Source: the human T2T-CHM13v2.0 reference genome, Homo sapiens. From it: a stretch of 64,000 nt of DNA. Positions 39,802-42,010 of this stretch are shown here, piece after piece (positions within the stretch are counted from its first letter, which is position 1; each line of letters opens with the position of its first letter). The notes beneath the pieces are model-generated. The model was not told the origin of the DNA. It saw only the letters and a program-made list of their open reading frames with translations, and did not search any database. The translations under genes and the position numbers were made by a program. Where the stretch lies: the NCBI RefSeq assembly GCF_009914755.1, contig NC_060934.1; one strand, given 5' to 3'.

Positions 39802-40085
39802 GTGACGGAGTCTCGCTCTGTCGCCCAGGCTGGAGTGCAGTGGTGCAATCTTGGCTCACTGCAGCCTCTGCCTCTTGGGTTAATGCATTCTCCTGCCTCA
39901 GCCTCCCGAGTAACTGGGACTACAGGCGCCTACCACCATGCCCGGCTAATTTTTTTGTATTTTTTTAGTAGAGATGGGGTTTCGCCGTGTTAGCTAGGAT
40001 GGTCTCAATCTCTGGACCTCGTGATCCGCCCTCCTAGGCCTCCCAAAGTGCTGGGATTACAGGCATGAGCCACCGTGCTTAGCTG
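39802..40085 (-). mobile_element. AluY/Sc-like within L1
   Basis: Alu consensus. Confidence 0.88.
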
Positions 40086-40331
40086 GTATCTTTTTATGTG
40101 CATATTTGTTATTTGTTATTTTTGGTGAAGTGTTTATTAAGCTCTCCCCACCACCTGCTTTTTTTTTATTGGCTTGTTTTGTTGTTATTGACTTTTGTGA
40201 GAGTATGTATTCTGGATGCAGGTCCTTTGTCAGATACATATTTGCAGATACTTATCTCACTCTGTGGCTTATATTTTCATTCTTTTAATCTTTTGAAGAG
40301 CAGACATTCTTTATGAAATTTAGTTTATGAA

Positions 40332-41033
40332 TTTTTTTGTGTTTTCTTTTACAAGCTTTTAAAACTATAATTCAGGAGTATATAGTCACACAGCCCAGAC
40401 TGGTTAGCCAAATCTAAAATAAACTGGCTTCTTATCACAACTAATGTGTGAACATTGCAACCCTTCTTCTCTCCAGAATGACCATAAAAAAAGTTACTGT
40501 AGAGAAACAGAAACCTAGGTTTGAGGCAAAACGTAAAAACCAAAGGAAAAATAGCAATTCAGTGGTTCGTTGGTGAAAGCAGGAAAGTTTGTGCCCTTCA
40601 CTGGGCTACTTTGCTCTTCTTACTCTTAATCTTTTTTTTTTTTTTTTGAGACGGATTCTCGCTTTGTTGGCAGGGTTGGAGTGCAGTGGTGTGATCTCGG
40701 CTCACTGCAGTCTTTGCCTCCTGGGTTCAAGGGATTCTCATGCCTCACCCTCCCGAGTAGCTGGAATTATAGGTGCCCACCACCACGCCTGGCTGATTCT
40801 TGTATTTTTAGTAGAGATAAGGTTTAACCATGTTGGCCAGGCTGGTCTCAAACTCCTGAGCTCAGGTGATCCACCCGCCTTGGCCTCCCAAAGTGCTGGG
40901 ATTACAGGTGAGCCACAATGCCTGGCCTTAGTCTTGCTCTTTTTGTTCCTCTTCTTCAGTCCATCCATGTTAGACCTCAATAGGTTTGAACAAACCATCT
41001 ATTCGTTTCTTTGGAGCTTACCACAGTGATGAT
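40332..41033 (-). pseudogene. 5'-truncated processed pseudogene of SRP14, interrupted by an Alu (40632-40927)
   Basis: Minus strand reads [11 protein letters not shown]/(frameshift)/[23 protein letters not shown][Alu]KSKKSKVAQ*, against recalled SRP14 [39 protein letters not shown]. It is followed by an SRP14-like 3'UTR (tttcctgctttcaccaa..ccactgaattgctatt...tatatactcctg) and an A-rich tail near 40332-40350. Confidence 0.88.
40632..40927 (-). mobile_element. AluS inserted into the SRP14 pseudogene
   Basis: Alu consensus; TSD ttaatct(t)/ttagtctt. Confidence 0.92.
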
Positions 41034-41105
41034 TGTTCCTTGCTAGTGTATAAAAATCCTGTTGAAATTTCTGTGTTTATTTTGTATCCTGCCACCTTGC
41101 TTAAA

Positions 41106-42010
<905 letters not shown>

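What the first reader, a model, noticed from the sequence alone, without database searches (positions are those of the whole stretch)
40332..41033. Hidden SRP14 retro-fossil lacking the poly-alanine tail, itself split by an Alu
Seen: removing the Alu and one TSD copy gives ATG GAT GGA CTG AAG AAG AGG AAC AAA AAG AGC AAG ACT AAG AGT AAG AAG AGC AAA GTA GCC CAG TGA = [22 protein letters not shown], followed by an SRP14-like 3'UTR and A-tail. Established: human SRP14 ends KKTK plus a long Ala/Thr-rich GCA-repeat tail that expanded in anthropoids, non-primate SRP14 ends roughly KSKKSKPAQ, and SRP9/14 binds Alu RNA and is needed for Alu retrotransposition. Inference: this copy preserves the pre-expansion allele and predates the AluS that landed a few codons from the future expansion site. 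It offers a relative clock for SRP14 tail evolution versus Alu amplification, and being short, split and buried in L1 it may be unannotated.
Basis: partly seen in the sequence, partly recalled or inferred. Interest (0 to 1): 0.8.

Follow-up and report, generated by a model that had tools for sequence, protein, structure and literature searches.

The report
Ancient SRP14 pseudogene split by Alu
A dead, truncated reverse-transcribed copy of the SRP14 gene, made long before monkeys and apes arose and later interrupted by an Alu element, lies in an intron of MLLT10; it is real but ordinary, one of at least eight such copies in this genome.

Summary
Window 41033-40332 (minus strand) is a 5'-truncated, intron-less SRP14 copy. 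It runs from codon 67 to the stop, followed by about 250 nt of 3'UTR and a decayed A-tail. It has a 7-nt frameshifting deletion and is split after codon 104 by an Alu.

The Alu's target-site duplication is best read as 18 bp (15 of 18 identical), which restores an indel-free match to the parent gene and a tail of non-primate length ending K-S-K-V-A-Q-stop.

The copy is very old: K2P to the parent is 0.23-0.28. It sits in the basal trio of eight retrocopies found in this genome, outside a clade with 98-100% support that holds the parent. Its short tail is therefore the ancestral state, not a secondary loss.

That makes it a poor clock, because it says only what dog and mouse SRP14 already say. 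None of the seven tail-bearing retrocopies has the long tract. The younger chr17 and chr12 copies (three Ala) and the chr11 copy (contracted tract) bracket the expansion better.

The Alu's position fits an A-rich lysine-codon target and the local Alu density (22-30% chance of a hit). Interest is low.

The parts
40927..41033 (-). 5' piece of the SRP14 retrocopy: codons I67 to K104 of the parent. It spans the exon 3/4 and 4/5 junctions with no intron. A 7-nt deletion after codon 77 shifts the frame.
   Evidence: Parent exon map; alignments; PDB match E 1.4e-6; whole-genome match E 2.7e-17.
40927..40944 (-). 5' copy of the Alu's target-site duplication (AAAAAGAGCAAGACTAAG), covering codons 99-104.
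   Evidence: Identical at 15 of 18 positions to 40636-40619. Both copies share a G that the parent lacks.
40648..40926 (-). Alu body, a dimeric 7SL-derived SINE in the same orientation as the SRP14 copy.
   Evidence: 49 matching stretches in the window, 33 of them 250 nt or longer. Divergence from the local majority consensus is 14.1% at all sites and 10.0% at non-CpG sites. Two sub-threshold Metazoa_SRP matches on the minus strand.
40637..40647 (-). Alu A-tail. The boundary with the A-run of the duplication cannot be fixed.
   Evidence: Read directly.
40619..40636 (-). 3' copy of the Alu's target-site duplication (AAAAAGATTAAGAGTAAG).
40598..40618 (-). End of the SRP14 coding region: AAG AGC AAA GTA GCC CAG TGA, giving K105 S K V A Q and a stop. 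Only two codons stand where the parent has a 28-codon Ala/Thr/Pro tract.
   Evidence: The tail has the same length as the 110-residue SRP14 chains in the PDB.
40351..40597 (-). SRP14 3'UTR, ending about 45 nt short of the parent's distal poly(A) site and just after the position of an internal ATTAAA.
   Evidence: Alignments; own-genome search with identity 73-77% to the other copies.
40332..40350 (-). Decayed poly(A) tail of the retrocopy.
   Evidence: Read directly. Homology to the host repeat resumes at 40331.
41034..41099 (-). Upstream flank: an old dispersed repeat, L1-like by recall, in the same orientation as the retrocopy.
   Evidence: Colinear with the downstream flank in 2 of 11 related loci.
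40085..40331 (-). Downstream flank: the same old dispersed repeat, resuming about 0.7-0.8 kb further along the repeat.
   Evidence: 280 first-look candidates in the genome; 40 were scored, 39 of them elsewhere at 68-83% identity. Spacing.

Best explanation
This is an inert, very old processed pseudogene of SRP14.

How it arose (inferred steps):
- An SRP14 mRNA, polyadenylated at a proximal ATTAAA site, was reverse-transcribed and inserted, probably by the L1 machinery. The target was an older L1-like repeat in what is now an MLLT10 intron, antisense to MLLT10.
- Only the 3' 390 nt or so survive, from codon 67 onward. About 0.75 kb of the host repeat is missing at the junction, and no flanking duplication is visible.
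- At that time SRP14 still had the short mammalian tail: two codons between K107 and Q, and a TGA stop.
- Much later an S-type Alu inserted into the A-rich lysine-codon stretch and duplicated 18 bp (codons 99-104).

Shown directly: homology, intron loss, A-tails, the duplication and the nesting order.
Inferred: the mechanism of insertion and the absolute ages.

The sequence has no function. Its short tail is simply the ancestral state.
For: Homology:
- PDB SRP14 match at E 1.4e-6.
- Genome-wide DNA matches at E 3.0e-33 and 2.7e-17.

Processed origin:
- The copy is colinear across the parent's exon 3/4 and 4/5 junctions.
- An A-rich tail follows the UTR.
- The second chr11 copy ends at the same proximal site.

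Age:
- K2P to the parent is 0.275 (361 sites) or 0.233 (360 sites, corrected construct).
- For comparison, K2P is 0.021-0.026, 0.064-0.079 and 0.134-0.144 for the chr11, chr17/chr12 and chr1 copies.
- ML trees exclude the window copy from the clade (chr1,(chr17,chr12,(parent,chr11))) with support 98/97, 99/98 and 100/99.
- The TGA stop and the 12-nt UTR segment are shared with the old copies.

18-bp duplication:
- 15 of 18 positions are identical.
- It restores exactly the 18 nt found in 4 of 4 intact comparators. The tail then aligns to the parent without any indel except the repeat tract.
- The site just upstream of the duplication reads AC|AAAAAG, close to the recalled L1 endonuclease preference.

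Alu:
-.

Host repeat:
-.
Against: - No target-site duplication of the retrocopy itself was found, so classical L1-mediated insertion is inferred rather than shown.
- The order within the basal trio (window, chr3, chr7) is unresolved, with support 32-63.
- Distance and branch length depend on the alignment. The end branch is 0.125 against 0.17-0.18.
- Conversion to years rests on recalled substitution rates.
- Pfam gave no match for the two short window fragments (0 families each). The SRP14 domain model ends near residue 93, so the protein-level support is the PDB phmmer match alone.
- The region is low-complexity (AAG/AAA), so a 15-of-18 repeat is less improbable there than in random sequence.
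- The Alu subfamily and the L1 identity come from recall, not from a repeat library.
Confidence: 0.9

Rival explanations
1. The Alu duplicated only about 9 bp (AAGACTAAG / AAGATTAAG), and the pre-insertion copy carried two extra codons (AGT AAG) relative to other SRP14 sequences.
For: The 9-bp pair matches at 8 of 9 positions and also abuts the Alu ends, because the A-run hides the true start of the duplication.
Against: - It needs a 6-nt insertion that 4 of 4 intact comparators lack. Parent, chr17, chr12 and chr11 copies all have 18 nt.
- The implied cleavage site (GC|AAGA) is a poor match to the recalled endonuclease preference.
- The extra AGT AAG is itself explained as the diverged copy of ACT AAG within the 18-bp duplication.
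Confidence: 0.12
2. The copy derives from a post-expansion SRP14 mRNA and lost the Ala/Thr tract secondarily, by slippage or through the Alu insertion.
For: Secondary contraction does happen in this family. The chr11 copy is 97.5-98% identical to the parent yet keeps only six tail codons, including an ACA interruption typical of the expanded tract.
Against: - The window copy lies outside the clade with 98-100% support that holds the parent and the younger copies.
- It is 20-23% divergent from the parent.
- It has the TGA stop and the 12-nt UTR segment of the old copies.
- The Alu has both duplication copies, and the sequence from K105 to the stop continues intact, so nothing was deleted at the tract site.
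Confidence: 0.03
3. The 5' truncation and the missing 0.75 kb or so of host repeat come from one later genomic deletion. That deletion removed the front of a once longer retrocopy, its 5' duplication and the adjacent repeat. It was not a truncation or target-site deletion at the moment of insertion.
For: - No flanking duplication of the retrocopy was found.
- In 2 of 11 related repeat loci the two flank segments lie about 716 and 811 nt apart net of Alus.
- The junction is abrupt.
Against: Nothing here separates the two alternatives. Truncation at insertion with loss of target DNA is also a known outcome of L1-mediated integration (recalled). Only 2 loci could be used for the spacing.
Confidence: 0.4

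Closest known systems
Named SRP14 processed pseudogenes: SRP14P3 (between KAT7 and TAC4 on chr17, passage in PMC10045734) and SRP14P2 (listed beside SMCO4, passage in PMC8169753). My matching of these names to loci L002 and L007 rests on those neighbouring genes and is an inference.
   Same: Intron-less copies of the same parent mRNA, each with a 3'UTR and an A-tail, and none with the long GCA tract.
   Different: They are full-length and young: K2P to the parent is 0.064-0.070 and 0.021-0.026. The window copy is 5'-truncated, frameshifted, split by an Alu, three to ten times more divergent, and ends at the proximal poly(A) site.
Retropseudogenes used as archives of a source gene's past states: BC200 pseudogenes, Kuryshev et al. 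2001 (seen only as reference-list entries).
   Same: Dated dead copies record earlier sequence states of a gene tied to Alu biology.
   Different: In the searches I ran, I found no paper that does this for the SRP14 tail. The window copy is the least informative member of such a series.
Anthropoid GCA-repeat extension of SRP14: Chang et al. 1995 (not held; known to me from a passage in the review PMC11581171, and from recall).
   Same: The tract site is the one that carries just two codons in the window copy.
   Different: That work compared living species. The window copy predates the event and shows only the ancestral state.

Membership tests
Processed pseudogene (retrocopy) of SRP14 | Sequence homology to SRP14 mRNA in both coding region and 3'UTR | tested here: met
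Processed pseudogene (retrocopy) of SRP14 | Introns absent across exon junctions of the parent | tested here: met
   The exon 3/4 and 4/5 junctions are contiguous in the window copy.
Processed pseudogene (retrocopy) of SRP14 | Poly(A) tail at the mRNA 3' end | tested here: met
   A 19-nt A-rich run at 40350-40332 follows the position of an internal ATTAAA. The second chr11 copy ends at the same place.
Processed pseudogene (retrocopy) of SRP14 | Flanking target-site duplication | tested here: not met
   None seen at the junctions. Instead about 0.7-0.8 kb of the host repeat is missing. This weakens only the claim about how it inserted.
Processed pseudogene (retrocopy) of SRP14 | Disabled reading frame | tested here: met
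   5' truncation at codon 67, a 7-nt deletion and the Alu insertion.
Pfam SRP14 (PF02290) | Match to the family profile above the cut-off | tested here: inconclusive
   0 families for the 24-aa and 21-aa window fragments. The chr17 copy used as positive control scored E 6.6e-21. The fragments are too short and lie mostly past the end of the model.
Alu (dimeric 7SL-derived SINE) | Two 7SL-related monomers, an A-tail and a flanking duplication | tested here: met
   Two Metazoa_SRP matches of 35.6 and 29.5 bits, below the gathering score of 70, as expected for an Alu. An A-run and a 15-of-18 duplication. 49 related stretches in the window.
AluS subfamily | Subfamily-diagnostic positions | not testable with these tools
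   No repeat library was available. The S-type call rests on recalled diagnostic positions. The element's 10.0% non-CpG divergence lies between the main local cluster (0.038-0.097, 25 of the 33 elements) and the four oldest elements (0.147-0.164).

The most novel reading that the evidence does not exclude
Taken together, the eight SRP14 retrocopies in the human genome form a dated archive of the growth of the tail:
- Two codons with a TGA stop in the oldest copies (window, chr1, chr3, chr7).
- Exactly three GCA with a TAA stop in two independent copies of intermediate age (chr17 and chr12, end branches 0.038-0.063).
- The 28-codon tract today, with a contracted remnant in the youngest copy (chr11, end branch 0.014-0.023).

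The Alu nested in the window copy has about 0.10 non-CpG divergence, and its two duplication copies differ at 3 of 18 positions. It therefore looks older than the three-GCA copies. If so, S-type Alu amplification was already under way while SRP14 still had a tail of three alanines or fewer. The expansion would then have followed the onset of the Alu burst rather than preceding it.
Probability: 0.3. Interest if true: 0.45.

Novelty: new member of a known kind. Interest (0 to 1): 0.2.

Why it matters
By itself it matters little. It is a dead gene fragment in an intron, of a kind present in thousands of copies. Its ancestral tail repeats what non-primate SRP14 sequences already show.

Its modest value is twofold. 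It appears to be missing from RefSeq. And it is the oldest-class member of a small series of SRP14 retrocopies. Dated across primate genomes, that series could order the growth of the Alu-binding protein's alanine tail against the waves of Alu amplification.

Tried and rejected
- Chang et al. 1995 (PMC230438) and Bovia et al. 1995 (PMC301205): not held. The species distribution of the tract therefore comes from review passages and recall.
- Pfam on the two window fragments: 0 families.
- Literature search for SRP14P1-P5: 5 papers. One was a false match to SRP14 P124A (checked) and a second, PMC3823927 (5 occurrences of 'srp14p1'), was not opened. Only SRP14P1, P2 and P3 occur as names, and none is tied to chr10.
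- Search for 'SRP14' plus 'retrocop': 1 paper, with a single mention of SRP14; seen as a listing only. I therefore found no printed use of SRP14 retrocopies as a record of the tail. This covers only that library.
- Error in my first 'model A' construct (reused): it kept one AAG too many because of a wrong anchor. One search exposed the error. rebuilt the construct strictly by coordinates. The topology was unchanged. K2P fell from 0.275 to 0.233 and the end branch from 0.17-0.18 to 0.125.
- Possible distal poly(A) signal: MAFFT aligned ...CATAAAGAATGTCTGC at 40316-40300 to the parent's distal poly(A) region. I rejected this because the same stretch aligns to the host repeat in two related loci.
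- Orthology in other mammals, Dfam/RepeatMasker classification and GENCODE or retrocopy catalogues could not be consulted with these tools.

Full report
**1. What is in the sequence**

Read on the minus strand, the stretch 41033-40332 has three parts.

- 107 nt at 41033-40927 translate, in two frames, to SRP14-like peptide.
- An Alu follows. Its body is 40926-40648, then comes a run of 16 A and a G.
- After the Alu the sequence reads ATT AAG AGT AAG AAG AGC AAA GTA GCC CAG TGA. About 250 nt of non-coding sequence follow, and then a 19-nt A-rich run that ends at 40332.

The 24-residue translation of 40998-40927 matches SRP14 chains in the PDB at residues 81-104. The best E-value is 1.4e-6, with 9 distinct sequences at E up to 1. 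Pfam found nothing for the 24-aa and 21-aa fragments, which are short and lie largely past the end of the model. The chr17 copy served as positive control and scored E 6.6e-21 for PF02290.

**2. Parent gene and sister copies**

I searched the window's own assembly with the 3'UTR piece and then with a near-parent retrocopy. This found the following.

- The parent gene on contig 15, matched exon by exon.
- Retrocopies on contigs 1, 3, 7, 12 and 17, and two on contig 11.
- The window's own two pieces, at E 3.0e-33 and 2.7e-17.

That makes eight retrocopies in all. This is a lower bound, as the tool itself notes.

I mapped the parent's five exons with two full-length retrocopies and checked the splice sites. 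The spliced parent translates to 136 residues with a 28-codon Ala/Thr/Pro tract.

In the alignments the window copy starts at codon I67, the last codons of exon 3. It runs without introns through exon 4 into exon 5.

Its 3'UTR stops about 45 nt before the parent's distal poly(A) site, shortly after the position of an internal ATTAAA. The second chr11 copy ends at the same place, which points to a proximal polyadenylation site.

MAFFT had aligned a stretch downstream of the A-run to the distal poly(A) region. That stretch belongs to the host repeat.

**3. The Alu and its duplication**

The insert matches 49 other stretches of the window, 33 of them 250 nt or longer. Alu-like sequence makes up 18% of the window. 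The insert also gives two sub-threshold matches to the 7SL RNA family on the minus strand, one for each monomer.

Two readings of the target-site duplication are possible, because the A-run hides where it starts.

- The alternative is 18 bp, 40944-40927 against 40636-40619, with 15 of 18 identical.

The 18-bp reading leaves exactly 18 nt between AAAAAG and AAAGTA. That equals the 18 nt in the parent, chr17, chr12 and chr11 copies, 4 of 4 intact comparators.

With the 18-bp reading the whole tail aligns to the parent codon for codon, apart from the repeat tract. It has the same length as the 110-residue SRP14 chains in the PDB, whose tails read ...KKRDKKSKSKKSKPA and ...KKRDKKNKSKKSKPA. I recall these chains as dog and mouse.

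My first script construct for this model kept one AAG too many. One search exposed the error and one search corrected it.

**4. Age and placement**

Kimura two-parameter (K2P) distances to the parent over the window-homologous columns:

| Copy | K2P to parent |
|---|---|
| chr11 | 0.021-0.026 |
| chr17 | 0.064-0.070 |
| chr12 | 0.070-0.079 |
| chr1 | 0.134-0.144 |
| chr3 | 0.256-0.279 |
| window | 0.233-0.275 |
| chr7 | 0.296-0.308 |

I ran three ML trees, on 388 columns, on 682 columns, and on the corrected construct. All three recover (chr1,(chr17,chr12,(parent,chr11))) with support 98/97, 99/98 and 100/99. The window, chr3 and chr7 copies stay outside this clade in an unresolved basal group.

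The window copy's own branch is 0.125-0.18 substitutions per site.

Two discrete characters agree with the trees.

- The old copies of the window, chr1 and chr7 have a TGA stop where the parent, chr17, chr12 and chr11 have TAA.
- All copies except chr11 and the parent keep a 12-nt UTR segment.

Using recalled neutral rates for the human lineage, 0.13-0.18 corresponds roughly to the age of the primate-rodent split. That is certainly older than anthropoids, but the figure in years is inference only.

The nested Alu is 14.1% divergent from the local majority consensus at all sites and 10.0% at non-CpG sites. Its duplication copies differ at 3 of 18 positions. It therefore arrived when the retrocopy was already about half to three-quarters of its present age. 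The S-type label rests on recalled diagnostic positions.

**5. Host and mode of insertion**

Both flanks belong to an old dispersed repeat. The first look found 280 candidates, of which 40 were scored, 39 of them elsewhere in the genome at 68-83% identity. By recall this is the ORF2 region of an L1.

In 2 of 11 related loci both flank segments occur in the same order and orientation. Net of nested Alus they lie about 716 and 811 nt apart. The other 9 loci lacked the upstream segment.

So about 0.75 kb of the host repeat is missing exactly where the retrocopy sits, and no duplication flanks the retrocopy. Either the insertion itself truncated the cDNA and deleted target DNA, or one later deletion removed the front of the copy together with the adjacent repeat. 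I cannot separate these two alternatives.

**6.

The copy does preserve a pre-expansion tail and does predate the Alu.

Secondary loss is excluded for this copy by its placement and by the intact sequence around the tract site. It is nevertheless a real phenomenon in this family. The chr11 copy is 97.5-98% identical to the parent, yet it keeps only six tail codons, including an ACA interruption of the expanded tract.

The clock idea fails for this copy. A fossil of this age can only show the state that dog-type and mouse-type SRP14 already show. None of the seven retrocopies that cover the tail has the long tract.

The Alu lying 9 nt from the future repeat site has an ordinary explanation. The lysine codons make an A-rich target. 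At 33-49 Alu stretches per 52.5 kb of non-Alu sequence, a target of about 388 nt has a 22-30% chance of being hit (my arithmetic). A second SRP14 copy, on chr11, is also split by an Alu.

**7. Novelty**

RefSeq lists nothing here, according to the hub's table. I could not consult GENCODE or the retrocopy catalogues.

The literature searches found the names SRP14P1, P2 and P3 only in gene lists. They found no paper that uses SRP14 retrocopies to trace the tail. That statement covers only the held library.

The bolder reading treats the eight copies as an archive of the tail: two codons, then three GCA in two independent copies, then the long tract. On this reading the nested S-type Alu looks older than the three-GCA copies. 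It is not excluded, but it rests on a few hundred sites and on comparing different classes of sequence.

Noticed in passing
L002:1198-1527 (contig 17, about 50.66 Mb; matched by me to SRP14P3): This retrocopy keeps an open 110-codon SRP14 frame ending K-A-A-A-Q-stop despite about 9% coding divergence from the parent. It scores E 6.6e-21 for PF02290. Many of the changes are amino-acid replacements, so the open frame may be chance.
   Followed up: partly
L007 (contig 11, about 93.45 Mb; matched by me to SRP14P2): The youngest retrocopy is 98% identical to the parent's 3'UTR, yet its tail is only A-A-T-A-A-Q. That equals the last six codons of the parent's tract. This indicates an internal 69-nt loss within the GCA/ACA repeat, either during or after retroposition.
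   Followed up: partly
L019/L020 (contig 11, about 73.78 Mb): An eighth SRP14 retrocopy that covers only the 3'UTR. It is split by an antisense Alu flanked by a duplication of about 14 nt, and it ends at the same proximal poly(A) site as the window copy. K2P to the parent is 0.142.
   Followed up: partly
L009 (contig 15, parent SRP14 gene): In this assembly the parent gene encodes Ala at residue 124. This is the P124A variant that PMC10984872 (passages) reports at about 92% population frequency (rs7535).
   Followed up: no
L004 and L019 (contig 1 and contig 11): These two copies share CACTGAATTTCC just after the stop, where the other copies read differently. Their distance to each other (0.149) is no smaller than their distances to the parent. 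The shared motif may therefore be a past state of the parent rather than a sign that one copy derives from the other.
   Followed up: partly
window 40744-40795 (-), 40663-40727 (+), 41133-41181 (+): Sub-threshold Rfam matches to mir-1268 and mir-3135 lie inside Alu elements, at 32-44 bits against gathering scores of 80-83. They reflect the Alu-derived nature of those families, not microRNA genes.
   Followed up: no
window 39804-40073, 41122-41385, 41455-41734: Three more Alus lie within 700 nt of the retrocopy. The host repeat here is cut into short pieces. The element at 41122-41385 is among the four most diverged of 33, at 14.7% non-CpG divergence.
   Followed up: no
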